64,000 bases of DNA, taken from assembly GCA_964424585.1 (NCBI GenBank), contig CAYRJD010000031.1, forward strand, positions 2,352 to 66,351, in the 5' to 3' direction. A program made the position numbers and the translations under genes. This DNA comes from an uncultured Acidimicrobiales bacterium (GTDB lineage Bacteria; Actinomycetota; Acidimicrobiia; Acidimicrobiales; Poriferisodalaceae). The first letter of the stretch is position 1. Every line of letters starts with the position of its first letter. Below the pieces are notes generated by a model that was given only the letters and a program-made list of their open reading frames with translations, was not told where the DNA came from and made no database searches. Below, in pieces: positions 3,313-54,240 of the stretch.

Positions 3313-4002
3313 CTAGCCGTCACCGGGTGCAAGCGGTCGACGTCCGTTGAACGCGTTCATCGTCGCTTCGACGCCGGCCGTGGCGATCGAGTTGATCGCC
3401 TCGACCGCGACCTCGAGCGCCGCGTCGAGCGCTGCTCGCTCGGCTCTCGACGGGCGGCTGAGCACGTAGGAAACCCCCGCGCTCCCAGCGGGCGGCTTGC
3501 CCACGCCGATGCGCACGCGGCTGAAGTCGGCCGCGCCGGTGTGCTGACGGATCGAAGCCAGGCCGTTGTGCCCGGCGAACCCGCCGCCCGCTTTCACCCG
3601 CAGCGCACCGGGCGGCAGATCGAGTTCGTCGTGAACGACCACCAGCGCCGCCGCGTCGCTGATGCCCGCGCGCCGCAGCAGCAGCCGCACCGCTTGACCT
3701 GACTCGTTCATGAACACCTCAGGCACCGCGCAGTCGACCCGTAAGATGTCGCCCGACTCGGCTGGCTGGGGCGCTGGCAGACGCACCGTCGTGTGCTGCG
3801 CCTTCAGCCGCCGCACCGAGCGCAGCGCCTCGTCGTGGGTGTCGACGAACCGTCGCACGACGTCCGCGCCGACGTTGTGTCGGGTGTGGCTGTACTTGCT
3901 CCCGGGGTTGCCCAGACCGACGACGAGCAGATCGGCGGGAGTGCCCCGACGGCTACTCCGCTTCAGCTTCTTCGGCGCCCTCAGCCTCGGCCCGCTCGCC
4001 AT
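3313..4002 (-). CDS. pth: peptidyl-tRNA hydrolase
   Basis: 229-aa ORF with the LLVVGLGNPGSKYSHTRHNVG signature, located between rplY/ctc and mfd. The ATG at 4002 overlaps the rplY 3-prime end by ~50 nt. No ATG/GTG lies closer to the motif. Confidence 0.9.
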   Translation of the reverse strand: MASGPRLRAPKKLKRSSRRGTPADLLVVGLGNPGSKYSHTRHNVGADVVRRFVDTHDEALRSVRRLKAQHTTVRLPAPQPAESGDILRVDCAVPEVFMNESGQAVRLLLRRAGISDAAALVVVHDELDLPPGALRVKAGGGFAGHNGLASIRQHTGAADFSRVRIGVGKPPAGSAGVSYVLSRPSRAERAALDAALEVAVEAINSIATAGVEATMNAFNGRRPLAPGDG

Positions 4003-4600
4003 CTTCGTCGACCGCTTCCTCGTCGGTCTCGCCCGCGGCGATCGACGCGCGGCTGCGCTGACCGATGACCACGAGCGTGTCGTCGCCGAGCTGGCTGACC
4101 ATGCCGTCGGGCAGCGCCAGGTCGCCGACGCGCACCGGGTTCTCGATGGTCAACTCGGTGATGTCGACCTCGATCGACGGCGGAATGACACCCGCGGGCG
4201 CCTCGACGGTGAGCGACATCAGCTGCTGCTGCACGACTGCGCCTTGGCGCGACGCGAGGGTGGCCTCGCCGACCAGGTGGAGCGGGACGTCGACGACGAG
4301 CCGCTCGTCGAGCGCGATCAGCATGAAGTCGACGTGGGTCACGCGATTGGCGATGGTGTCGCGCTGCATGTCCTTGACGATCGTGAGGTGGTCGGTGCCG
4401 CCGACGTCGAGCGTGATGATGGCGTTGGGGCCCGCCGCGTTGAGCGCCGTGCGGAAGCGCAACCGGTCGAGCGTCAGCGCGACCGGTTCGGTGCCGTGGC
4501 CGTACATGACGGCCGGGATCTTGTCTGAGCGCCGCAAGCGCCGCGCCGCGCCGCTGCCGCGGTCGGTGCGCTGGGTGGCAGCGAGCTTTAGCTGTTCCAT
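3953..4600 (-). CDS. rplY: 50S ribosomal protein L25 / general stress protein Ctc
   Basis: MEQLKLAATQRTDRGSGAARRLRRSDKIPAVMYGHG N-terminus plus an acidic C-terminal tail. The ATG at 4600 is preceded by GAGG; the track start at 4615 is a TTG. Confidence 0.85.
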   Translation of the reverse strand: MEQLKLAATQRTDRGSGAARRLRRSDKIPAVMYGHGTEPVALTLDRLRFRTALNAAGPNAIITLDVGGTDHLTIVKDMQRDTIANRVTHVDFMLIALDERLVVDVPLHLVGEATLASRQGAVVQQQLMSLTVEAPAGVIPPSIEVDITELTIENPVRVGDLALPDGMVSQLGDDTLVVIGQRSRASIAAGETDEEAVDEDGERAEAEGAEEAEAE

Positions 4601-6458: not shown

Positions 6459-6532
6459 TGGCTCGGGGAGGAGGACTCGAACCTCCACCGTCGGGACCAA
6501 AACCCGATGTCCTGCCATTAGACGATCCCCGA
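6459..6532 (-). tRNA. tRNA-Gln (anticodon TTG)
   Basis: The reverse complement folds by hand. Acceptor TCGGGGA/TCCCCGA, D-arm GTCT-AATGGCA-GGAC, anticodon arm TCGGG-TTTTGGT-CCCGA (TTG), T-arm GGAGG-TTCGAGT-CCTCC, with GCCA encoded. Confidence 0.9.
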
Positions 6533-8446: not shown

Positions 8447-9256
8447 TCAGTAGCCCGGTGCCCAAGAACCCCCGATGGGGCCCGTCGTGCTGACAGTCAC
8501 AGCCGCCACGCCTTCGTGCGTTACATCCGGGAACGTTCCGCGCACGAAGAACGCGCCGCCGCTGCCCGCGAGCTGCGGCATCTCGCCGGTCTGGTTGCCG
8601 AGCGCGTCTCGCCACGCCGCCAGCTCGGGCGCGATTGCCAACGTTGCCGGCCACAGGTCGTTGCGCGAGCGGCTCGCTGGCCGCAGCTCGTCCCACGCCT
8701 CATACACTCGACGGGTCGACACCACCAGCGGCGGAATGAGCACCGTGAACTCTTCGTGCGCGGCAGCCAGCACCTCCACCTGCTCGCCCACACCGGTCAC
8801 CCGGGCTCGACCGCCGACCAAGCAGAACGCCACGTCCGCCCCGAGCGCCGCGGCCGCTTGAGACGTGACCGGCGGGTCGGCTCGGCCGGTCTCGTTGGCC
8901 CACCGCAGCACGGCTGCCGCGTCGGCCGACCCACCGCCCAAGCCAGCGCCCACGCCGATGCGCTTGGCCAGGCGGACGTCGGCTCGCACGCCGACCATGT
9001 CGAGCGCCCGAGTGACCAAGTTGTCGTTCGGGTCGATGGGCGTGGTCGGCTCGGCTGCGGGTGCTTCGTAGACGACGTCGACGCTCGACGTGCCTGAGGT
9101 CGGCTTGAGCGTGAGCGTGTCGTAGAGGTCGACCGTCACCATCTCGGCGTCGATGGTGTGCAGCCCAGCGTCTCGCACGCCGGTGACGAACAAGCTCAGC
9201 GTGAGTTTCGCGGGCGCCAGCAGCGCGACCGGCTCGATGAGTTCGGAGGCGCTCAC
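8447..9256 (-). CDS. ispE: 4-diphosphocytidyl-2-C-methyl-D-erythritol kinase
   Basis: APAKLTLSLFVTG and GVGAGLGGGSADAAAVLRW are GHMP kinase motifs. The likely start, GTG 9256, overlaps the rsmA stop (GTGA). Confidence 0.9.
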   Translation of the reverse strand: MSASELIEPVALLAPAKLTLSLFVTGVRDAGLHTIDAEMVTVDLYDTLTLKPTSGTSSVDVVYEAPAAEPTTPIDPNDNLVTRALDMVGVRADVRLAKRIGVGAGLGGGSADAAAVLRWANETGRADPPVTSQAAAALGADVAFCLVGGRARVTGVGEQVEVLAAAHEEFTVLIPPLVVSTRRVYEAWDELRPASRSRNDLWPATLAIAPELAAWRDALGNQTGEMPQLAGSGGAFFVRGTFPDVTHEGVAAVTVSTTGPIGGSWAPGY

Positions 9257-43108: not shown

Positions 43109-44440
43109 CTAGTAGCGGTGCTGCCCGCGGTGCCCGAGCGGCAGCGCGCACCGCTTGTGCGACCTCGCGCCCACGTGCTCGCAGCGAGCCGAGCCGCCTG
43201 CGGCAGCCGGCGCGCCCGCTCCCCGAGCCATGGCCTCTTCGAGGGCCGCGCCACGCGTGGCATCGACGAGCGGCGGTTCGACACGCGGCTCAGGCAGCGG
43301 CCTTACGACCACGTCGCGCAGCCAGTGGAGGTAGCCGCGATGCGCTACGCGGACGAGTTGCTGGTCAGCGTCGGCGGCGACCAGCCCGTTCGCTTCAAGC
43401 TCGCGGAGAACGACGCCGCTGTCTAGGCCAAACGTCTTCACGAGCTCCGCAATCGGCAGCTCGCCATCGGCCCGAGCCAGCAGCACCAGCGCCGCCTTTT
43501 CGTCGTCGGTGAGCGTCCGCCAGACCGGCGCGAGCAGGTCGTCGGCTACCCGCACCGCCGCTCGCCGGATGCCTTCGACCACTGCTTCATCGGTGAGGTG
43601 CCCGTCGTCTGCAGCATCCCACGCCCGTGAGCCCACCAGCTGAAGCACGTACGGGTGCCCGCCCGTTGCGGCGACGAACCGATCGAGCGCGGCGGGCTCG
43701 ATGTCGCCGCCTCCGCTCGCGACGGTCCGAACGATGCACTGCTCGACGTCAGCAGGGTCGAGGGCGTCGACATCGATGTGCTCTGCCCGAGCGAGAAACG
43801 TCGGCCCGTCAACTTGCAGCGACCGCTTGAAGCCAGACAGCGCGGCGCCAAGAACCGAGACCGGATACGCGTTGACAGCTTCTCGCACTCGGATAACCAG
43901 ATCTTCAAGAGCGCCGGGCTCGACTCGGTGAATCTCGTCGATCACCAGCAACAATCCGGTGCCGCGACGCTGCGCGAGCTGACCAACTTCGTCGAGCAGC
44001 ACCTCTAGCTGCGTGAGCGCAGACAACTCGGCCTCAGACGGCGCCGTCTGTCGAGCAACGCCGACGCGAGCACCTACCCCAGCGACCGAGCCGCCGACGT
44101 CGACCGACGCGAGCTTGCTGGCGCCTCCGTCTAGCTCCTCACGCACCCGCCGCAGCCGCACGGCCATGCCCTCAAAGACGTTCGGCCCGTGAAGCACCGG
44201 AATGACGTGCCAGCCGCGCTCAATGGCCGTGCGTTGCGCTGCCTTGAGCAGCACCGTCTTGCCGAGCCCGCGAGCACCCAGCAGCAACACCTTGCGGTGC
44301 GGCGCACCCGCCATCGCCTCCAGCCGCCCAACGATCTCGTCGCGGCCACCCAGGTAGCGCGGCTCGTCATCGAAGCCCGGAGTGAACGGGTTCGCGCGCT
44401 GCACTGGAGGTTGCGTGTCACGCTTTCGTCGCCATCGCAC
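43109..44440 (-). CDS. AAA/STAND-like ATP-binding protein with C-terminal winged helix
   Basis: NPFTPGFDDEPRYLGGRDE lead-in, VLLLGARGLGKTVLL Walker A, LLLVIDEIH Walker B, wHTH-like ALVLLARADGELPIAELVKTFGLDSGVVLRELEANGLV, Cys/His-rich tail CEHVGARSHKRCALPLGHRGQH. Confidence 0.75.
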   Translation of the reverse strand: MRWRRKRDTQPPVQRANPFTPGFDDEPRYLGGRDEIVGRLEAMAGAPHRKVLLLGARGLGKTVLLKAAQRTAIERGWHVIPVLHGPNVFEGMAVRLRRVREELDGGASKLASVDVGGSVAGVGARVGVARQTAPSEAELSALTQLEVLLDEVGQLAQRRGTGLLLVIDEIHRVEPGALEDLVIRVREAVNAYPVSVLGAALSGFKRSLQVDGPTFLARAEHIDVDALDPADVEQCIVRTVASGGGDIEPAALDRFVAATGGHPYVLQLVGSRAWDAADDGHLTDEAVVEGIRRAAVRVADDLLAPVWRTLTDDEKAALVLLARADGELPIAELVKTFGLDSGVVLRELEANGLVAADADQQLVRVAHRGYLHWLRDVVVRPLPEPRVEPPLVDATRGAALEEAMARGAGAPAAAGGSARCEHVGARSHKRCALPLGHRGQHRY

Positions 44441-46764: not shown

Positions 46765-47676
46765 GTGAGCATCAACGCCATCGGACACAGCTACGTCGAC
46801 GTCGCCTCGGGCACGCGCCTCGACGCTTGGTTTCCAGACGTGTTCGCGCTGGGCGACGACACCGCGCCCACCCGGTCGTGCCTAGCGGCTGAGCTAGGCG
46901 TGATCACCGGTGAGGAGGTGGAGGTGGCCATCGCCTCGCTCGATGAGCCACCAACGGATCTGCTCGACGCCTACCTGCGGCTGCACCTGCTCAGCCGCCG
47001 AGAGATCGCCCCGCACGACGCCAACCTCGACGGCCTGTTCGGCCTGCTGACAAACTGCGCGTGGACGAACGCCGGGCCCGTGCTGCCGGCGCAGGTCGAC
47101 GCGCTGCGAGTCGCCGCTGCGGCGCGCGGCGCGCACGTGTCGGTGCGAGCGGTCGACAAGTTCCCCCGCATGACCGACTACGTGGTGCCTGCTGGCGTGC
47201 GCATCGCGGACGCCGACCGGGTGCGGTTGGGCGCGCACCTGGCTGACGGCACGACCGTGATGCACGAGGGTTTCGTCAACCTCAACGCCGGCACGCTCGG
47301 CCCGGCGATGGTCGAGGGTCGCATCAGCGCGGGCGTGGTCGTCGGCGCGCACAGCGACCTAGGCGGCAGCGCCTCAACGATGGGCACTCTGTCGGGCGGC
47401 GGCAAAGAACGGGTCAGCGTCGGCGAGCACTGCCTGCTGGGCGCGAACTCGGGCATCGGCATCGCGCTAGGAGACCACTGCACCGTCGAGGCCGGCCTCT
47501 ACGTGACGGCTGGCAGCCGCGTCACGATGCCCGACGGCTCGGTCGTGCGCGGACGAGACATCTCCGGCCGCTCAGGCATGCTGCTGCTCCGCAACTCCGA
47601 AACCGGCACCATCGAAATGCGCGTCCGCAACGAACATGCCTGGACCGGCCTCGACCCCGACCTCCACGCCAACTAA
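46765..47676 (+). CDS. dapD: 2,3,4,5-tetrahydropyridine-2,6-dicarboxylate N-succinyltransferase (actinobacterial type)
   Basis: GVRIADADRVRLGAHLADGTTVMHEGFVNLNAGTLGPAMVEGRISAGVVVGAHSDLGGSASTMGTLSGGG hexapeptide region. Confidence 0.85.
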   Translation: MSINAIGHSYVDVASGTRLDAWFPDVFALGDDTAPTRSCLAAELGVITGEEVEVAIASLDEPPTDLLDAYLRLHLLSRREIAPHDANLDGLFGLLTNCAWTNAGPVLPAQVDALRVAAAARGAHVSVRAVDKFPRMTDYVVPAGVRIADADRVRLGAHLADGTTVMHEGFVNLNAGTLGPAMVEGRISAGVVVGAHSDLGGSASTMGTLSGGGKERVSVGEHCLLGANSGIGIALGDHCTVEAGLYVTAGSRVTMPDGSVVRGRDISGRSGMLLLRNSETGTIEMRVRNEHAWTGLDPDLHAN

Positions 47677-47930
47677 CCCCATCCCCACTTCCGGAGGGTC
47701 ACTTGGCTGCCGCGGCCCAACATGCGTCCAAAGTACACCCTGCCACCGAATCACCATCAGTGCCCAAACACATCAGTCGCGACGTCCCGCCCAGGGCCTG
47801 CCTAATGCCATGCCCACCAGTTCCAAGCACTATCAAAAATACAATTGAAGTGGTAGCTACATCGCACAGACAAAACTCCTACCAAACGAGGCGCAATACA
47901 TCAAGCAACCGTGTCTGCGAAGCACACGCA

Positions 47931-49361
47931 TCAGAGCACTGACTCAAGTTCCCGCCATTCGATTTTACCCTTGGCCTCTCGAGACTGAAGGTAACCCAAG
48001 TACTCAAGTGTCTTGGCCGCAAAATCCAGTTGAACTCTCCAATTCTGCTTTTGATCAACAAACACATCACCGTTCTGCTTTTCACCAACTAACTCATCAC
48101 CGGTCCGTCTAGCATCAGAGTCAGACCAACCAAGGTCCCCTAGTTTCAACCTTACTACGTCTTCATCCTCCTCGCCCGTCATAAATGCCTCAACCACTTG
48201 ACTACGAACAACCTCATCCTCTACAAACGTGGTATCCAGCTTCTTCAACACCGCTGCTAGGTAATGCCGCCAGTTCGTCACCTCATCGCAGTTCAAGTCA
48301 AGTCCCCCACCAGTTTCCTTATCCGCCTTAGCATCCTTGGCAAACCTAACAAGAGAGCTAAGCCATGTCTCCGTACTAGGCTCATCCGGCTTCGTATTTG
48401 AAAGATCGTCCTCCAAAGCAAGAACAGGACTGACGGTAGTCGTCAGGATCAAACGCCTCAATATGTTGTTCCAATTGCACTCAAACTCATTTTCCAGCTT
48501 CTCTCTCCACTCCTTCAGTTTCTCTTCGTACGCGTTTGATGTGTCGCTATCATCTTTGCCAGGTCTCTTTTCAAACCCAAAAAAGTGATCGTCATCAAAA
48601 ACCGCAGGGCGCTGCTTCATAATATTTTCCACGGCGCTCTTGACTTTAGCTTCATCGACTTTAACTTCATCGGTTTCCTTGATTTTTCGAATTATTTCGG
48701 CAAAAATTTGGTAAAGCGCAAATGAGCGTTTGGCTTTCTTTCGATTATCTGACGTTTTCGCTTGTAGGAGTTCATGTATTGATGGCCACCTGATTTGTGA
48801 TGTGCCTTCGACGTCGTCTTTATCCAAAGCGCGTGTTGAAGTCTCTCTCGGCTCTAACCTCCAATAACCTCTTTCACTTGCGTCGAGTTTGCCATCATTC
48901 TTGAGTTCGTTTCGTGCAAAGTCAATGTTGTTGCTCCAAACCGGTAGGCGTCGTTTCTTGGTGAGCCTTAGCTGACTCTGTCCGAAGTCGAAATCGGTGC
49001 GTCCATTTTTGATCTGGTCAAACACCCTGCGGAGCACTAGGACCCAGGCAACCGTCCTGTGGGCCACTTTGACGTTTAGGCCACCAAGTACTTGTTCTAA
49101 GTGGTCACGGTAGTCCTTAGCGCGCAATTTGCTACCCTCGCCCTGGAGGGTTGGCCACTGCTTCAAGTCTTCCTTCAACTGCCCCTGAGGTTTAGCGAGG
49201 ATATCTCTAGCAATTTTGTTGAACTCATCTGATAATCCTTTAGCTTCATCTTGATGGTCTGTCTTTCGGTAGTCACATTCCTTTTTCATCTTGCAGTGAA
49301 ACTTATCAAGTTTGTCCTTGAGATGATTTAGCCTTTCGGAGAGTGTCATGTGAGATTCCAT
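47931..49361 (-). CDS. AT-rich hypothetical protein with two Mrr_N-like winged-helix modules (island gene D)
   Basis: Long open frame in AT-rich DNA, where random stops should be frequent. K/E/D-rich. VWSNNIDFARNELKNDGKLDASERGYWRLEP and C-terminal NWRVQLDFAAKTLEYLGYLQSREAKGKIEWREL resemble the Mrr N-terminal wHTH. AAGGA lies 7 nt before ATG 49361; the track start 49397 and ATG 49349 are alternatives. Confidence 0.6.
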   Translation of the reverse strand: MESHMTLSERLNHLKDKLDKFHCKMKKECDYRKTDHQDEAKGLSDEFNKIARDILAKPQGQLKEDLKQWPTLQGEGSKLRAKDYRDHLEQVLGGLNVKVAHRTVAWVLVLRRVFDQIKNGRTDFDFGQSQLRLTKKRRLPVWSNNIDFARNELKNDGKLDASERGYWRLEPRETSTRALDKDDVEGTSQIRWPSIHELLQAKTSDNRKKAKRSFALYQIFAEIIRKIKETDEVKVDEAKVKSAVENIMKQRPAVFDDDHFFGFEKRPGKDDSDTSNAYEEKLKEWREKLENEFECNWNNILRRLILTTTVSPVLALEDDLSNTKPDEPSTETWLSSLVRFAKDAKADKETGGGLDLNCDEVTNWRHYLAAVLKKLDTTFVEDEVVRSQVVEAFMTGEEDEDVVRLKLGDLGWSDSDARRTGDELVGEKQNGDVFVDQKQNWRVQLDFAAKTLEYLGYLQSREAKGKIEWRELESVL

Positions 49362-49397
49362 CCTATATTCCTTTTGGGCTGTGTTGTTGTAGAGCAT

Positions 49398-50366
49398 CGA
49401 AGTGAGAGCGCGCGGGACCTAGGCGGCGTGGTGGAACTGCCCGTCCCCGTGATGGTGCTGTTATGTGGGACAATGGTGCGCGGGGTCGGCCAGCGAGTGC
49501 GGGCGCCATTGGGTCCCTGAGTGAACAGTTCGCGCGGGTCACCACAACCGCGTCGTCTTGCTGGCCTAAAATCACCTGGCAATCAACTGTTGGCCATGAG
49601 AGTTGTGGACGTCTCCGCGGAACACGCGCCGCATGACGAGGGCCATGGGCCGACGACAAGCGTAGGTGGCCGACCAGTGAAGCGTCATCACTCGCGACAC
49701 GGCCAAGGCCCACCTCGGCACGCGGGGCACTGCGTACGTAGCGCGTGGTGGTTCGACAGGCACCGACCCCTGCCTTCACTCGGTAGCTAAGGGTGGCGCG
49801 GCCGCGATGACTGCCTGTCGCAGCCAGTAGGGGTCGAACCGGGTGGGTCATGAGCATCGGCCGGTCAGCGACAAGACGTAACGGACGCGTGTCAAGACAT
49901 TGGCTCAGCGGCACAGACGCCAGCAGGACCTGGTCTTCGGATGGCACGAGCACCGCGGACATGCGCACACATGCTAGAGGGTGTTGCGTCAACTTCCAAG
50001 TCTTCCGTCGTGATGCGAGGCTTGGCGGTGCCGTGCTGGCGGGTCGGACGACGCCCGCGATGAACCATGCCGCAGCCCAACGAGACGATGTCGCTCATGA
50101 CGTCAGAGCTGCTGACCGGCAACGCGCATGCTTCCTCAAGAAGCACCGCAGGACTGCCGGGGGTCACCATTGCACGATGTGCGCATCACATTGCGTACTC
50201 TTCCTGAAAGAAGAATCGCAACGCCGACCAACCCACACAGGTGTCGATGAGCGTTTTGGCATGCGGAGCACACGGGCACGGCACCTGCTCGCAGAGTGCA
50301 ACGCTGCGCCCCTGGGTGTGCGGACTGAGGCCACCACTGCCCACGCCGAAGGCGACTGATCTGTTG
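49398..50366. other. ~970-nt segment without a credible ORF inside the island
   Basis: All six-frame ORFs here (49363-49992, 49521-49790, 49850-50359, 49892-50170) are Arg/Pro/His/Cys-rich with no SD and no recognisable motif. GC is intermediate. Confidence 0.5.
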
Positions 50367-51260
50367 TCACGGAGAGGTGGGTGGGGGTGGGGCTGCGAGG
50401 CGGGCGAAGTCGAGGAGCTGAGGGTGGTGGTGCTCGCAGCGGCGAGCGACGGCGGTCATGACGTCCCAGAGGCGAACGTCTGGTGCGGCACGGGCGGCGC
50501 TGCACACGGCACCCATCGCGCGTGGGTGGAGCAAGTTCGCATACGAGGCGCGCCCGCGGTCGGTGAAGCGCCCCCAGTCGCCCGCGCGCAGCACCTCATG
50601 GCACTCGTCTGGGGTCATCGGCTCGCTCGCATCGGCAGTGCCATCGGCTGCGACTACGGCCAGGTGTCTGCGCCACCAAGCACGAGCAACCGGCGCATCT
50701 TGGGCTGGGCGGCTGCCCCGGCTCTCAACATGACTTCCCAGGCGACGAAGGATGTTGCGGACGTCTCGGTCCAGCGCCTTGCGCTGCTTCTTGTTGAGGT
50801 CGGTGCCGTTGTCCCACGCGAGAGCGAAGCGGGAAGCGTTGAACGTCGCGCGAGGCGGCTCGGTGAACCGGCACTCTTCCAGCCACGCGATGTGCCAGAG
50901 GCACCAGGTCACCGGGTCTGATGCTTGCGACGGCGTGACGTCGCTCAGCGCCTCGTGCACTCGGACCTCCCACTCGAAAGGATACTCGTTCATGTCACTG
51001 GCAGACGTCTGCGGCAGCGGCGGAGCGTTGATGGAAGTGTCCGCGCTGAGCCCTAGCTCGTCTCGTAGGTAGCCAGCGAGGCGCAGACCGGTCACCGCTG
51101 GCCCTCGCAGGAACACCAACCGACGCTCAACCATCTCGTCATCGACGTCCGCGAACTTCCGGCAGGCAATCTTCTGCTGCCAGTCACGAAACTGCACACG
51201 GGCCGAGTCGTCCGCCTCCGTATACGCGGGCGAGGTTGTCGGATCGGGCGCGACACTCAC
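50367..51260 (-). CDS. hypothetical protein (island gene C)
   Basis: 297 aa. GTG start 6 nt after the stop of gene B. Balanced composition with W/Y/H/C-containing blocks (WCLWHIAWLEECRF). No family recognised. Confidence 0.6.
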   Translation of the reverse strand: MSVAPDPTTSPAYTEADDSARVQFRDWQQKIACRKFADVDDEMVERRLVFLRGPAVTGLRLAGYLRDELGLSADTSINAPPLPQTSASDMNEYPFEWEVRVHEALSDVTPSQASDPVTWCLWHIAWLEECRFTEPPRATFNASRFALAWDNGTDLNKKQRKALDRDVRNILRRLGSHVESRGSRPAQDAPVARAWWRRHLAVVAADGTADASEPMTPDECHEVLRAGDWGRFTDRGRASYANLLHPRAMGAVCSAARAAPDVRLWDVMTAVARRCEHHHPQLLDFARLAAPPPPTSP

Positions 51261-51266
51261 GACGAT

Positions 51267-52121
51267 CTACCCCTCGTAGTCGCCGGGTTCGACATCGGCG
51301 AGCAATTCGTCGCCCACCAGCAACGTCGCCGCGTAGAGGGAGCTGAAGCCTTCGTCGCCAGGCACCGCGCAGTCGGGGTCGGCCGCTCTCATGAGCCGAA
51401 CCAGCGAGTCACCCACGGCGTGGCGACTACCCGGCACGTCATCGCCCGCGAACTCAACTTGGTTCGGCGCGTCTGCGAGCGCCGCCGTCAATCCCGCCAG
51501 CGTGACCGCTAGCGCCGACGAACCAGACTCGTCTTGCTGGTACCGCTGGAGGTCGTCCGGGTGGAGTGACACCACCCAATGCGGCACGTCTGAGTTGGCG
51601 AACCCCAGCTTCATGCGCCGACGCTCGACGCTAGCGTCTGGCACGTACGCGACAATCGCGCTCAACGGCGAGACCAGCGGCACGTGCTGGCCGCGCACAA
51701 GCCAAGTGCCTGCGGGCACAAACACCGGTGCTTCCGCTTCCCATGCCGGATGAACTCCCTCAGGCTGGAGCTTGCAGTCCTCAACCGCCAGCAGGCCCGG
51801 CAAACCCACCAACTGTCGCGCCACCAAGTCCGTCTTGGCAATACTGGCGGTCACTCTGGTCAACCGCGCATCGGCGAGAAACAGCCGTGCGAGGTAGGTG
51901 GCCGGACTTCTCACCTCCAAGCACCATCTCGCGAAACCGTCTCGGACCAACTCTTCGAGCCCGGGCGCGCCGTTCAACTCGTGCTCGGCGACGAACTCAC
52001 CGACACGCGCCGTTCCGTGGCCACTAAATCGCACGAGGTCAACGTTCGCGTCGTAGCGCGCAGAAGGCCAATCGAGGTTCTGATAGTCCCGATGGTCGAG
52101 AACAGGGACTCTGTCGATCAC
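51267..52121 (-). CDS. hypothetical protein (island gene B)
   Basis: 284 aa. GTG 52121 overlaps the stop of gene A (GTGA). No family recognised. Confidence 0.6.
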   Translation of the reverse strand: MIDRVPVLDHRDYQNLDWPSARYDANVDLVRFSGHGTARVGEFVAEHELNGAPGLEELVRDGFARWCLEVRSPATYLARLFLADARLTRVTASIAKTDLVARQLVGLPGLLAVEDCKLQPEGVHPAWEAEAPVFVPAGTWLVRGQHVPLVSPLSAIVAYVPDASVERRRMKLGFANSDVPHWVVSLHPDDLQRYQQDESGSSALAVTLAGLTAALADAPNQVEFAGDDVPGSRHAVGDSLVRLMRAADPDCAVPGDEGFSSLYAATLLVGDELLADVEPGDYEG

Positions 52122-54094
52122 GACTGCTCCTCAACAGCCTCAACAGGCTTGAGCACCGCCACTTCCACGCGAAGCGCATCTAGCGCATCCTGGGAAACGC
52201 CAACGACATCCACCTCGAGTTCCGCCACTCCTTGTTCGGCAAGAGCTACGACGCTCGCCGCGTAATCGTCTGTGCCGTCAGCAAATCGGCAAGGTAGTGC
52301 CGCGGGCTTGACCTGCTTGTCGCACGCCGGGTCAGAACCGTTGCCCGCCAGCAGCACAATGTCGACCATCGCGTCAGCGCCGCTCGAAGTGCTCCGGTTC
52401 GATCCTCGGGCGGCGAACTTTGGTTGCCAGATGACGCGAACGTGGCCGTCTTCACGCGGAATGACCGAAGCGGGCAAGCCAGCTACACGACCCCTTGCCC
52501 GCGCTTGAGTGCGCGAGCGATTGGTGTCGCCCGGATGCTCGCCGCCGTTGGGATTTGGGTCTTCCTCCAAGGCTCTGCCCTCGTCGCTCTCGTCTTCGTC
52601 TTCGATAATCGGCGGCGGTGCTGGCTTGGCGCGCTGTGGCGGAGATCGATCGTCTAGCTCGCCGCGCAGCAAGCGAAGTGCCTCGGGCTCCCAGGTGCTC
52701 GTGTTCCGCGTCGGCACGGTTTCACGCAGCTCTTCAGCCAGAGCCCTCAACGCGCTCTTGAGCTGCGGCCCTTCCCGATTGGGTGCATTGCCCGCGTCGA
52801 CCTGGAGGTGTGAACCGGTCTCGCACGCACGCACGAGACGACCGAACGCGCCCGTAGCGTCAACGACGGCGTGAAACGCCACTTGGTCGGAAAAGTCCTT
52901 GGCCTCCAGGCGCCGAACGGCGTCGCTAATCCGCATGCCTTCTCGAAAGAGCGTCACCCGTGAACGCTCGCCGGGCGTCTCTTTCCATCTGATGCGGGCA
53001 CCGTCCAGCAGGTCATGACGCGGAGGCAACGACGTGCCCTCGGTCCACACCTTCCAGGCTGCGTGGGCATTGACCCCAGCGCCGAGTTCTTTGGCGCCAC
53101 GCGTAGCGCGCTGACGCAGTCTGATTCGTTCCAGAGCCTCCCGAAAGGCTTCAGTTCCGGCAGTGCCTTGACCACCTACCGCGGTCGACGCGCCCGTTAT
53201 CGCGTTCTCGTGCGTTACCTCCATCAGCCCGTCTTCGATTGCCACGGTGAAGTGATGCGCCACTATCTCCGCGATCCACGCACCCAGCGGATCGCGTTGC
53301 GTGTCGTCAAGTCGTCGGGGTGAGAGTGACCTATGTGCCGTGATGCAGACGGCAGTTCCCCGCTCCAAATCGCCAAGCAGCCAGTCGGGCGGATCATGCG
53401 CGGGGTACGGATCGGTGCCTATGAAGCTGTCGGCATGCGCTTCGACTGTCAAGCACCCGTGGTGCGAGCGGGCGACGGGTCTGCCGCTGTCATCAATGCC
53501 GTCGTCGGCATCTCCGTGGGTCGCCAGAAAACACTGCCCGCCCAGCATCCGGGTTCCGTCCGCCGCAATGCCACCGTAAAGCACGTACCGGAGGCGCGAG
53601 GCCGCAATGGCCGTCAGATGCCCGACACCGATCGAGCCCCTAGCGCTTGACCCTTCGTCGGTGTTGCCGCCAGACCCCTTGTTGAGCATCTTCTTGTAGC
53701 GGACGGCATCTAGGCCCTTGCCGTTATCCCGGCAGATAAGGCACGTGACGGCACCCTCGTCCAGTGCCTCAGCAATGCGCTCGCTCACCCTCCTATCTTG
53801 AGGTGATCGCCGCAGGTGCTCACCGATGCGCGCAAAAGCTCCCCTGTAGTCCGCGATGCCAGGCATCTGCGCGCTTGGCACACGTTGTGAAACAAAGTCA
53901 ACTCGAACGACTCCGTCAGCTTCATCGTCGGGCTGAGCGTCGAGCGCGTTCTGCACAAGTTCGCGAATGACGATCTCGTCGTTGACGTGTTCGTCTGCTA
54001 GAGCCGCGAAGCCGTCCTCGGTGCCCAAGTCTTTAACGAAGACGAGTCGTGCCTCGCCGCCGCTCGCCTGATCGGCCCCAGCTGCTTCGGTCAC
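52118..54094 (-). CDS. GHKL-superfamily ATPase (MutL/Hsp90/MORC-like Bergerat fold), island gene A
   Basis: N-box ELVQNALDA at 53936-53962, G1 box DNGKGL at 53711-53728, G2 box GSIGVG at 53621-53638. Start taken as GTG 54094, preceded by GAAAGGGG. The track start 54259 adds 55 Arg/Cys-rich residues. Confidence 0.75.
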   Translation of the reverse strand: MTEAAGADQASGGEARLVFVKDLGTEDGFAALADEHVNDEIVIRELVQNALDAQPDDEADGVVRVDFVSQRVPSAQMPGIADYRGAFARIGEHLRRSPQDRRVSERIAEALDEGAVTCLICRDNGKGLDAVRYKKMLNKGSGGNTDEGSSARGSIGVGHLTAIAASRLRYVLYGGIAADGTRMLGGQCFLATHGDADDGIDDSGRPVARSHHGCLTVEAHADSFIGTDPYPAHDPPDWLLGDLERGTAVCITAHRSLSPRRLDDTQRDPLGAWIAEIVAHHFTVAIEDGLMEVTHENAITGASTAVGGQGTAGTEAFREALERIRLRQRATRGAKELGAGVNAHAAWKVWTEGTSLPPRHDLLDGARIRWKETPGERSRVTLFREGMRISDAVRRLEAKDFSDQVAFHAVVDATGAFGRLVRACETGSHLQVDAGNAPNREGPQLKSALRALAEELRETVPTRNTSTWEPEALRLLRGELDDRSPPQRAKPAPPPIIEDEDESDEGRALEEDPNPNGGEHPGDTNRSRTQARARGRVAGLPASVIPREDGHVRVIWQPKFAARGSNRSTSSGADAMVDIVLLAGNGSDPACDKQVKPAALPCRFADGTDDYAASVVALAEQGVAELEVDVVGVSQDALDALRVEVAVLKPVEAVEEQS

Positions 54095-54178
54095 GGCCAG
54101 CGAACCCCTTTCGTGCGACCCCCAACTAGGCAGTCTGCCAGCAGTGCAACACCGCTTGCCGTGGCTTTCGCGGGTGCG

Positions 54179-54192
54179 TCGCACGCGTGCGA
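54179..54192. promoter_or_regulatory. perfect 14-bp palindrome TCGCACGCGTGCGA in a divergent intergenic region
   Basis: Read directly from the sequence. It lies between the GHKL gene start (54094) and the small + strand ORF (54241). CACTGC/GCAGTG and a GCGTGAC x2 repeat lie nearby (54213-54247). Confidence 0.3.
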
Positions 54193-54240
54193 GGCGTGCG
54201 CTGCGTCGGCAACACTGCAGGGCGTGACGGGCAGTGCCGC

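What the first reader, a model, noticed from the sequence alone, without database searches (positions are those of the whole stretch)
47931..49397. Very AT-rich 488-aa gene with two Mrr_N-like winged-helix repeats
This is a 1.4-kb uninterrupted frame in DNA that is 33-50% GC per hand-counted line, within a ~70%+ GC genome. The charged protein has two segments that align well by eye with the C-terminal half of the E. coli Mrr N-terminal wHTH, recalled from memory as YKNRAGWAHDRLKRAGLSQSLSRGKWCLTPAG. The first is WSNNIDFARNELKNDGKLDASERGYWRLEP (nt 48843-48947). The second is the extreme C-terminus, NWRVQLDFAAKTLEYLGYLQSREAKGKIEWREL (nt 47934-48053). Mrr_N modules are typical of restriction and defence proteins. 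Here there is no recognisable nuclease or NTPase between them, so it may be a sensor, adaptor or regulator for the neighbouring GHKL operon, or an independent cargo gene from a low-GC donor.
Basis: partly seen in the sequence, partly recalled or inferred. Interest (0 to 1): 0.65.

Follow-up and report, generated by a model that had tools for sequence, protein, structure and literature searches.

The report
AT-rich orphan gene with Mrr-type DNA reader
A real but almost unique, AT-rich gene in a GC-rich sponge-symbiont genome encodes a non-enzymatic protein with one Mrr-like DNA-binding winged helix, sitting beside an uncharacterised GHKL-ATPase operon in a fast-changing defence-type island; its role is unproven.

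Summary
Window 47931-49397(-) is a 488-codon ORF. Its likely start is ATG 49361, giving 476 aa. It has 47% GC in a 67.7% GC window and is the only GC trough in 64 kb. Contig depth in three sponge metagenomes matches the flanks, so it is not an assembly chimera.

The first Mrr_N-like segment is supported, but below the Pfam threshold (E 4e-5, 24 bits, cut-off 29.5). The only homologue gives the same hit. An HMM built only from unrelated Mrr_N proteins also finds it. The second, C-terminal copy is only suggestive (single-test p about 0.005 and 0.07). No nuclease or NTPase domain was found, and both AlphaFold models were unusable.

The family has two members among about 15 billion proteins. Both lie just downstream of a GHKL A-B-C operon at the same dapD locus. 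Seventeen distant A-B-C loci lack this gene and carry a PP-loop (SspD/DndC-like) gene instead. One close relative has neither.

Island alleles are much older than the host split (dS 1.0-1.5 against 0.3-0.4 in the flanks; gene D is saturated). Both D alleles still keep GC3 near 0.5.

Most likely it is a DNA-binding sensor or accessory protein of a hypervariable defence-type cassette. The link to the GHKL operon is inferred, not shown.

The parts
47931..49361 (-). Gene D: 476-aa CDS. The longest ORF extends to ATG 49397, giving 488 aa. It is an AT-rich, acidic, mostly alpha-helical protein.
   Evidence: ORF. ORF length against shuffles. Start and RBS. Gene-called product P0001. GC 0.47 and GC3 0.50. 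Helical secondary structure in two low-confidence AF2 runs.
49077..49361 (-). N-terminal ~95 aa helical, coiled-coil-like region. It is the best-conserved long stretch between the two family members.
   Evidence: BLASTP of D against P0011 over aa 5-195: 26% identity, E 3e-12. Weak Pfam hits to coiled-coil families (SF-assemblin, E 0.0057). AF2 helices 7-27 and 34-56. The coiled-coil and oligomerisation reading is inferred.
48855..48971 (-). Mrr_N-type winged-helix core (recognition helix plus wing), aa 143-181 in 488-aa numbering.
   Evidence: Pfam PF14338 E 4.3e-5, 24 bits, below the 29.5 cut-off, profile 39-77 of 87. The isolated segment scores 25.3 bits. 35% identity to EcoKMrr aa 54-84, E 0.010. 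52-55% identity to the core of small Mrr_N proteins L006 and L007. Independent HMM iE 4e-8.
47946..48044 (-). Conserved C-terminal motif W-x3-L-x2-A-x3-L-x2-LGY-x2-S-x-EA-x-G. It may be a second, degenerate Mrr_N-like helix plus wing.
   Evidence: 39% identity over 33 aa between the two family members. hhalign against segment 1: P 0.0018, probability 15%, in register. Independent HMM iE 0.0021 for the window and 0.061 for P0011. Shuffles reached the score 11/2000 and 148/2000 times. No Pfam or BLASTP hit. Not significant in a 3433-ORF search.
48043..48102 (-). 30-nt tandem duplication inside gene D, encoding GDELVGEKQN / GDVFVDQKQN just before the C-terminal motif.
   Evidence: the repeat finder family D1, 87% identity. 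Logan contigs break here and show 2-3x depth.
47677..47930 (.). 254-nt 3' tail between the stop codons of gene D and the convergent dapD. It is partly AT-rich; the AT-rich block runs from about 47790 to 49395.
   Evidence: The equivalent spacer in L001 is only 40 nt.
49362..50366 (.). About 1-kb GC-rich (64%) spacer between gene C and gene D. It has no convincing coding frame and no homologue. It presumably carries gene D's own promoter.
   Evidence: No strong GC3 periodicity. Only composition-type ORFs. No blastn or meaningful tblastx match, and no amidohydrolase remnant. No Rfam hit. The L001 equivalent is 274 nt and is not alignable.
50367..51260 (-). Gene C of the GHKL operon (297 aa). It gives weak hits to DUF6339 and DinB_2.
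   Evidence: Conserved after gene B in all related loci.
51267..52121 (-). Gene B of the GHKL operon (284 aa). It has no known domain. Its start overlaps the stop of gene A by 4 nt.
52118..54094 (-). Gene A: GHKL (sacsin/MORC-like) ATPase, 658 aa as gene-called (P0002).
   Evidence: PADLOC PDC-M33A E 1.2e-14. HATPase_c and P_loop_sacsin weak hits. Homologues.
46765..47676 (+). dapD (tetrahydrodipicolinate N-succinyltransferase). This housekeeping gene marks the right edge of the island.
   Evidence: Pfam THDPS_M and Hexapep_2. 88% nt identity to L001, dS 0.40.

Best explanation
Gene D is a real, selectively maintained, laterally derived gene.

It encodes a non-catalytic DNA-binding protein with these parts:
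- an N-terminal coiled-coil-like region that may drive oligomerisation;
- one Mrr-type winged helix, which reads DNA and, by analogy with Mrr and other defence sensors, possibly reads a modified or foreign DNA state;
- a long, fast-evolving acidic helical region;
- a conserved C-terminal motif that may be a second, degenerate copy of the same helix plus wing.

It belongs to a small hypervariable cassette (GHKL-A, B, C, then D) lodged between housekeeping genes. It is transcribed from its own promoter. Most likely it serves as a DNA-sensing or targeting accessory for the neighbouring GHKL-B-C module. In this clade that module has lost the PP-loop (SspD/DndC-like) partner found in all distant relatives.

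Shown: the gene is real, the wHTH-like motif is present, no enzyme domain is recognisable, the family has two members, both sit next to A-B-C, the alleles are old, and the composition is foreign.

Inferred: DNA binding, oligomerisation, any reading of DNA modification, and any functional coupling to A-B-C.
For: - Real gene: a 489-codon open frame against a shuffle maximum of 302. Both alleles keep 413-476-codon ORFs in AT-rich DNA although divergence is saturated. Depth equals that of the flanks in three metagenomes.
- wHTH: Pfam Mrr_N E 4.3e-5 and 8.9e-6 in the two members, on the same profile region. PADLOC mREase_IV E 0.006. EcoKMrr BLASTP E 0.01. Independent HMM iE 4e-8 and 1e-10.
- Non-catalytic: no other domain found in Pfam, NCBIfam, PADLOC, PHROGs or PDB, whether whole or in segments.
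- Linkage: the only homologue among about 15 billion proteins lies at the same position, same strand, downstream of gene C.
- The A-B-C alleles of the two D-bearing genomes differ by dS 1.0-1.5 against 0.31-0.40 in the flanks. The A-B-C plus D arrangement has therefore persisted far longer than the host split.
- D-bearing alleles are slightly closer to each other than to the D-less one.
- The window clade lacks the PP-loop gene that accompanies A-B-C in 17 of 17 distant loci.
- From the literature, Mrr_N is a swappable sensor domain in defence proteins: McrB fusions (PMC11090510) and the NsnA N-termini of Menshen (PMC12065111).
Against: - All Mrr_N scores are below the Pfam gathering cut-off, and only half of the domain aligns.
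- Neither AlphaFold run gave a usable model (pLDDT 39).
- Gene D is absent from the closely related A-B-C locus L005 and from all 17 distant A-B-C loci. No other Mrr_N-like ORF lies within 10 kb of those loci.
- Gene D has a different composition from A-B-C (GC3 0.50 against 0.68-0.77).
- It is separated from gene C by 274 nt in L001 and about 1000 nt here, while A, B and C are tightly coupled. This suggests a separate origin and a separate transcript.
- No shared domain with the PP-loop protein or with A, B or C (hhalign probabilities 0.4% or less).
- The two co-occurrences are at one locus in related genomes, so they count as one evolutionary observation.
- No expression data.
Confidence: 0.4

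Rival explanations
1. Independent cargo. D is a self-contained single-gene element of a defence or variable island. It could be a stand-alone sensor-effector whose roughly 300-aa unknown helical part is an unrecognised effector, or a DNA-binding protein with another role. It happens to share an insertion hotspot with the GHKL operon.
For: - Composition differs from A-B-C.
- It has its own upstream spacer of 274-1000 nt.
- A-B-C exists without D in L005 and in 17 distant loci.
- The locus is a rearrangement hotspot. The amidohydrolase lies on different sides of A-B-C in L001 and L005 and is absent from the window.
- Unrelated defence genes commonly cluster together (general knowledge).
Against: - The only two family members known both lie directly downstream of A-B-C on the same strand, and have stayed there across dS above 1.
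- No effector-like domain, transmembrane segment or enzyme motif was detected.
Confidence: 0.35
2. Transcriptional regulator. D is a wHTH repressor or activator that controls the GHKL operon or itself, comparable in role to the wHTH regulators of defence islands such as BrxR and CapW.
For: - A wHTH motif with no enzyme domain.
- It lies adjacent to a candidate defence operon.
Against: - At 476 aa it is much larger than typical regulators.
- It lies downstream of the operon, not upstream or divergent.
- It has no WYL or other ligand-binding domain.
- It is absent from nearly all A-B-C loci.
- The Mrr_N type of wHTH is known from restriction and sensor contexts, not from regulators (PMC11090510, PMC12065111).
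- No conserved operator-like sequence lies upstream of D in the two loci.
Confidence: 0.1
3. Non-functional relic or artefact. The ORF is either a decaying remnant of a foreign gene kept silent on AT-rich DNA, or a mis-assembled piece of another organism.
For: - No expression data.
- Near-orphan status.
- The middle region is very poorly conserved.
Against: - Two saturated-divergence alleles both keep full-length ORFs in AT-rich DNA, where the per-codon stop probability is 0.058.
- Conserved N-terminal region, wHTH and C-terminal motifs, and a conserved RBS-start arrangement.
- Depth is even with the flanks, and contigs cross both GC boundaries in three runs.
- A syntenic copy is present in two further metagenome assemblies.
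Confidence: 0.05

Closest known systems
EcoKMrr and the Mrr-family Type IV restriction endonucleases (Pfam Mrr_N PF14338 plus Mrr_cat)
   Same: Recognition helix plus wing of the N-terminal winged helix. D aa 141-171 (476-aa numbering) aligns to Mrr aa 54-84 at 35% identity. It matches Pfam profile positions 39-77. PADLOC mREase_IV hits the homologue.
   Different: - No Mrr_cat / PD-(D/E)xK nuclease domain.
- The wHTH is internal, following a 95-aa coiled-coil-like region, not N-terminal.
- Scores are below the family cut-off and the first half of the domain is not detected.
- About 300 further residues have an unknown fold.
Small stand-alone Mrr_N proteins (136-141 aa) from low-GC metagenome contigs (L006, L007)
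   Same: 52-55% identity over the 29-aa wHTH core, the closest sequence relatives found for that segment. They come from 45-46% GC DNA, similar to gene D.
   Different: They consist of one wHTH domain plus a short tail. They have no similarity to D outside the core and no GHKL neighbours. They also score just below the Pfam cut-off (28 bits).
Mrr_N or other wHTH sensor modules fused to defence effectors (McrB homologues, PMC11090510; NsnA of Menshen, PMC12065111; tandem wHTH readers of FokI and BpuJI, cited in PMC12065111; wH-nuclease Type IV enzymes, PMC11037411)
   Same: The concept of a swappable winged-helix DNA reader, sometimes in tandem, that supplies target or modification sensing to a defence system.
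   Different: In those systems the wHTH is covalently fused to the NTPase, ParB or nuclease effector. Here it sits on a separate polypeptide with no recognisable effector, and its partnership with the GHKL operon is only inferred.
GHKL-A/B/C plus PP-loop four-gene clusters of Acidimicrobiia and other (often sponge-associated) MAGs; PADLOC candidate PDC-M33 (A subunit only)
   Same: The window's A, B and C are homologues of these clusters (27-39% identity for A; B and C are always next to it). A hits PDC-M33A.
   Different: The window clade lacks the PP-loop (SspD/DndC/BrxP-like) gene. Gene D is not part of any of the distant clusters. B, C and the PP-loop protein hit no PDC-M33 model, so the match to PDC-M33 is at the GHKL-domain level only.

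Membership tests
Pfam Mrr_N (PF14338) domain | Score at or above the curated gathering threshold (29.5 bits) | tested here: not met
   24.0 bits for the window protein, 25.3 bits for the isolated segment and 26.2 bits for homologue P0011. E-values run from 4e-5 to 9e-6, significant but below the threshold.
Pfam Mrr_N (PF14338) domain | Recognition-helix plus wing motif aligned in register with bona fide Mrr | tested here: met
   Profile positions 39-77. EcoKMrr aa 54-84, 35% identity, E 0.01. An HMM built without D sequences gives iE 4e-8 and 1e-10.
Pfam Mrr_N (PF14338) domain | Full-length domain, with the N-terminal helices (profile 1-38) present | tested here: inconclusive
   No profile coverage before position 39. 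A helix is predicted at aa 101-118 upstream, but only in low-confidence models.
Pfam Mrr_N (PF14338) domain | Winged-helix three-dimensional fold | tested here: inconclusive
   AlphaFold2 with one and with two sequences gave mean pLDDT 39.0 and 38.8. The models are unusable, so no fold search was run.
   No Pfam hit even on the isolated C-termini, and no BLASTP self-match. hhalign P 0.0018 with probability 15%. Independent HMM iE 0.0021 and 0.061. Shuffles reached the score 11/2000 and 148/2000 times. iE 7.7 and 270 in a 3433-ORF search.
Mrr-type Type IV restriction endonuclease | C-terminal Mrr_cat (PD-(D/E)xK) nuclease domain | tested here: not met
   No nuclease family in Pfam, NCBIfam, PADLOC or PHROGs for the whole protein or its segments. 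The PADLOC mREase_IV match covers only profile positions 52-85 of 317.
Component of the GHKL A-B-C (plus PP-loop) system | Conserved co-occurrence with A-B-C across homologous systems | tested here: not met
   Present next to A-B-C only in the window and in L001/L002. Absent from L005 and from the distant loci L003-L024.
Component of the GHKL A-B-C (plus PP-loop) system | Same-strand adjacency and co-inheritance with the operon | tested here: met
   D lies downstream of C on the same strand in both D-bearing alleles. This has been kept across dS 1.0-1.5 between the A-B-C alleles. D is nevertheless separated from C by 274 to about 1000 nt, while A, B and C are tightly coupled.
Component of the GHKL A-B-C (plus PP-loop) system | Physical or genetic interaction with A, B or C | not testable with these tools
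   This needs co-purification or genetics. hhalign finds no domain shared between D and the PP-loop protein, A, B or C.
PADLOC candidate system PDC-M33 | Match of the protein to any PDC-M33 subunit model | tested here: not met
   D and P0011 give no PDC-M33 hit. Only GHKL-A matches PDC-M33A (E 1.2e-14). B and C match nothing.

The most novel reading that the evidence does not exclude
D may be the DNA-state reader that rewired an ancestral four-gene system (PP-loop DNA-modifying enzyme plus GHKL-B-C) into a PP-loop-independent, Type IV-like system. In this reading the PP-loop self-marking enzyme was lost, and a separately encoded Mrr-type winged-helix protein now tells the GHKL-B-C machinery which DNA to act on.

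In addition, D's AT-richness has persisted through saturated divergence inside a 68% GC genome. It may be maintained by selection, for example as a built-in expression brake or a silencer-binding switch for a dangerous protein.
Probability: 0.1. Interest if true: 0.7.

Novelty: new variant of a known kind. Interest (0 to 1): 0.35.

Why it matters
If the coupling to the GHKL operon is real, this would be a defence-type ATPase system that swapped a DNA-modifying PP-loop partner for a free-standing Mrr-type DNA reader. That would show how immune modules change their self/non-self logic.

The locus also gives a clean natural example of cassette alleles that are far older than their host lineages. 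It includes a gene that stays AT-rich in a GC-rich genome, which bears on how foreign genes are tolerated and regulated in Actinomycetota-like symbionts.

As it stands, it is a near-orphan DNA-binding protein of unknown role in an uncultured sponge symbiont. Its immediate significance is modest.

Tried and rejected
- Homologue searches. The word-indexed search of 5.8 billion clusters was run with the single sequence and with a two-sequence profile. The exhaustive phmmer search covered 1.84 billion representatives. They found only the window protein, P0011, and a spurious repetitive protein (P0012).
- GTDB genomes with D patterns: no hit.
- Viral contigs, phage and plasmid collections: no hit.
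- PDB by sequence for D, its profile, A, B, C and the PP-loop protein: no hit.
- Structure prediction. I did not run fold search, because matches to such models are meaningless.
- The look-up of encoding contigs for P0001: not on record.
- RNA runs: none. Transcription and Lsr2 silencing are therefore untested.
- Rfam: nothing in 46-56 kb.
- Insertion signatures: no convincing flanking direct or inverted repeats, tRNA or integrase at the island edges. The promoter and terminator scan was at chance level.
- Amidohydrolase relic: I tested whether the 1-kb spacer between C and D is a relic of the amidohydrolase found at this locus in relatives. It is not.
- Docking domain: I tested whether D shares one with the PP-loop protein or with A, B or C. 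It does not.
- Upstream regions of the two D alleles: not alignably conserved.
- AT-rich trough near A-B-C in L018: it holds unrelated genes.
- Literature: no paper mentions PDC-M33, DUF6339 or a PAPS-reductase plus GHKL defence system.
- Assembly-chimera explanation: rejected on depth and contig continuity.
Full report
**1. Observation**

Its stop-free run of 489 codons compares with a mean of 115 and a maximum of 302 in 2000 shuffles of the same AT-rich block. With a per-codon stop probability of 0.058, the chance of 488 open codons is about 3e-13.

The gene-called product in the public collection starts at the second ATG (49361; 476 aa, P0001). That start has AAGGAA 8 nt upstream. The only homologue has AAAGGAG at the same spacing. 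I therefore take 47931-49361 as the CDS.

The CDS is 47% GC, with GC1/2/3 of 0.56/0.34/0.50. Neighbouring housekeeping genes have GC3 of 0.85-0.89, and the GHKL genes have 0.68-0.77. The window as a whole is 67.7% GC, and this is its only trough. The AT-rich block (about 47790-49395) covers the CDS and its 3' tail. The DNA upstream of the start is host-like.

The Mrr sequence recalled from memory is correct (E. coli K-12 Mrr aa 55-86).

Three sponge-metagenome DNA runs contain the stretch at the same word depth as the flanks. Single contigs cross each GC boundary. The only contig break is at an internal 30-nt tandem duplication. The gene is therefore not an assembly chimera.

**2. What the protein is**

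Pfam gives a single hit, Mrr_N (PF14338): E 4.3e-5, 24 bits (cut-off 29.5), aa 143-181, profile positions 39-77 of 87. The hit persists on the isolated segment (25.3 bits).

The homologue P0011 hits the same part of the profile (E 8.9e-6, 26.2 bits). It also hits the PADLOC model for Type IV methyl-directed restriction enzymes over that model's wHTH part (E 0.006).

Direct BLASTP to EcoKMrr aligns D aa 141-171 with Mrr aa 54-84 (35% identity, E 0.01). A metagenome scan with the core motif recovered two small (136-141 aa) Mrr_N-type proteins from 45% GC contigs. They are 52-55% identical over the core. An HMM built only from those two proteins and EcoKMrr, with no D sequences, finds the segment in both family members (iE 4e-8 and 1e-10 for a one-sequence search).

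The first 'repeat' is therefore a credible Mrr-type recognition helix plus wing. It fails the Pfam threshold, and only the C-terminal half of the domain is detected.

The second, C-terminal segment is conserved between the two family members (39% over 33 aa). It has no Pfam or BLASTP support.
- hhalign P 0.0018, probability 15%;
- independent HMM iE 0.0021 (window) and 0.061 (P0011);
- 11/2000 and 148/2000 shuffles reached those scores.

In a 3433-ORF search these hits are not significant. The second copy is suggestive only.

Nothing else is recognisable. There are no nuclease, NTPase or effector families in Pfam, NCBIfam, PADLOC or PHROGs, whole or in segments. There are no PDB sequence relatives.

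The N-terminal 95 aa look coiled-coil-like. The protein is acidic and mostly helical. Both AlphaFold runs (one sequence and two sequences) gave pLDDT of about 39 and cannot be used.

**3. Distribution**

The family has two members. The word-indexed search of 5.8 billion clusters (single sequence and profile) and the exhaustive phmmer search of 1.84 billion representatives found only the window protein and P0011. A third hit was a spurious repetitive protein. GTDB genomes, viral contigs, phages and plasmids gave nothing.

P0011 (413 aa) is 26% identical to D. The similarity is confined to the N-terminal region plus wHTH (E 3e-12) and the C-terminal motif. It is also AT-rich (GC 0.49, GC3 0.55).

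**4. Context**

D lies in a 6.6-kb island between dapD and a DUF7508/acyl-CoA-dehydrogenase pair. Upstream of it, on the same strand, are three tightly coupled genes:
- A, a GHKL ATPase (PADLOC PDC-M33A, E 1.2e-14);
- B, with no known domain;
- C, with weak DUF6339 similarity.

An apparently non-coding spacer of about 1 kb separates C from D.

P0011 occupies the same position in the syntenic loci L001 and L002: A-B-C, 274 nt, D, then dapD. A third close relative, L005, has A-B-C but no D. There an amidohydrolase abuts C. In L001 the same amidohydrolase (85% identical) lies on the other side of A-B-C. In the window it is absent. The locus is therefore a rearrangement hotspot.

Homologues of A in GTDB genomes are mostly from Acidimicrobiia MAGs, many of them sponge-associated. 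B and C always follow A. None of these loci has a D homologue, an adjacent AT-rich trough or any other Mrr_N-like ORF within 10 kb. Every one of 17 such loci instead carries an adjacent ~428-aa PP-loop / PAPS-reductase-like gene, with weak SspD and BrxP similarity. That gene is missing from the window, L001, L002 and L005.

**5. Evolution**

Between the window and L001, the values are:

| Genes | dS | dN |
|---|---|---|
| Flanking genes | 0.31-0.40 | 0.02-0.06 |
| A, B, C | 1.0-1.5 | 0.16-0.27 |
| D | saturated (third-position identity 0.30) | 0.91 |

dN/dS for A, B and C is about 0.15-0.18. The island alleles are thus much older than the split of the host genomes. This points to cassette exchange or long-lived polymorphism.

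A-B-C is under purifying selection, and D is the most diverged part. Even so, both D alleles retain full-length ORFs, a conserved start arrangement and the same motifs. The D-bearing A and C alleles are slightly closer to each other than to the D-less L005 allele.

Both D alleles keep GC3 of about 0.5. Either both came recently from an unsampled low-GC pool, or AT-richness is being maintained. I cannot decide between these (unexplained note).

**6. Mechanism**

The best-supported reading is a non-catalytic, probably oligomeric DNA-binding protein with an Mrr-type winged-helix reader. It belongs to a hypervariable defence-type cassette. Published comparative work describes Mrr_N as a swappable sensor domain on McrB homologues and on Menshen NsnA (PMC11090510, PMC12065111). 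By that analogy, D most plausibly senses or targets DNA for a partner, and A-B-C is the only candidate partner nearby.

Points against coupling:
- D is absent from nearly all A-B-C loci.
- Its composition differs from that of A-B-C.
- It has its own spacer.
- It shares no domain with the PP-loop protein or with A, B or C.

I give 0.40 to the accessory/sensor model, 0.35 to independent cargo, 0.10 to a transcriptional regulator and 0.05 to a relic or artefact.

**7. Comparison and novelty**

D works like a wHTH sensor module of restriction and defence systems. It is not a member of the Mrr endonuclease family, because it has no nuclease domain. It does not pass the Pfam Mrr_N threshold. It is best filed as a new, near-orphan variant of a known kind: a winged-helix DNA reader in a defence island.

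Interest is moderate to low for the gene itself. The PP-loop + GHKL + B + C cluster, and its PP-loop-less derivative, are the more general lead.

Noticed in passing
Window 50367-54094(-); loci L003-L024 (for example L003:8691-13607): The GHKL A-B-C trio is normally a four-gene cluster. The fourth gene is an adjacent ~428-aa PP-loop / PAPS-reductase-like gene with weak SspD, BrxP and PAPS_reduct similarity. It is present in 17 of 17 distant loci, mostly Acidimicrobiia and other (often sponge-associated) MAGs. It is missing from the window and its three close relatives. No paper or PDB relative was found for any of the four proteins. This looks like an uncharacterised, possibly DNA-modification-linked system.
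   Followed up: partly
Window 47677-54236, compared with L001:8610-15275 and L005:494-5368: The dapD locus is a rearrangement hotspot with three arrangements. Window: DUF7508 | A B C | 1-kb spacer | D | dapD. L001: DUF7508 | amidohydrolase | A B C | D | dapD. L005: DUF7508 | A B C | amidohydrolase | dapD. The island alleles have dS 1.0-1.5 against 0.3-0.4 in the flanks.
   Followed up: yes
Window 49362-50366: A GC-rich spacer of about 1 kb lies between gene C and gene D. It has no convincing reading frame, no homologue in any fetched locus and no Rfam match. The equivalent in L001 is only 274 nt and is unrelated in sequence.
   Followed up: partly
Window 48043-48102: A 30-nt tandem duplication (87% identity) inside gene D encodes GDELVGEKQN / GDVFVDQKQN. 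It is the point where the short-read assemblies break.
   Followed up: yes
Window 43109-44440(-): A 443-aa STAND/AAA_16-type NTPase (nSTAND1, E 2e-8) lies 3.5 kb from the island. It is conserved in the syntenic locus L001, where a Fic-domain gene is also nearby. The wider neighbourhood may be conflict-related.
   Followed up: no
Window 8950-9047(+): ARAGORN calls a 98-nt 'tRNA-???' with a four-base anticodon here. Rfam at gathering threshold supports only the tRNA-Gln at 6462-6532. The odd call is probably a false positive.
   Followed up: partly
L003:1001-2521 and 3413-4041; L003:18402-21836: The distant four-gene cluster in L003/L004 sits in a dense defence-type island. That island holds a reverse transcriptase (RVT_1), HepT/MNT toxin-antitoxin pairs, AAA_14/DUF4143 ATPases, a PIN gene, and Schlafen/AlbA_2-HATPase_c_4 genes.
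   Followed up: no
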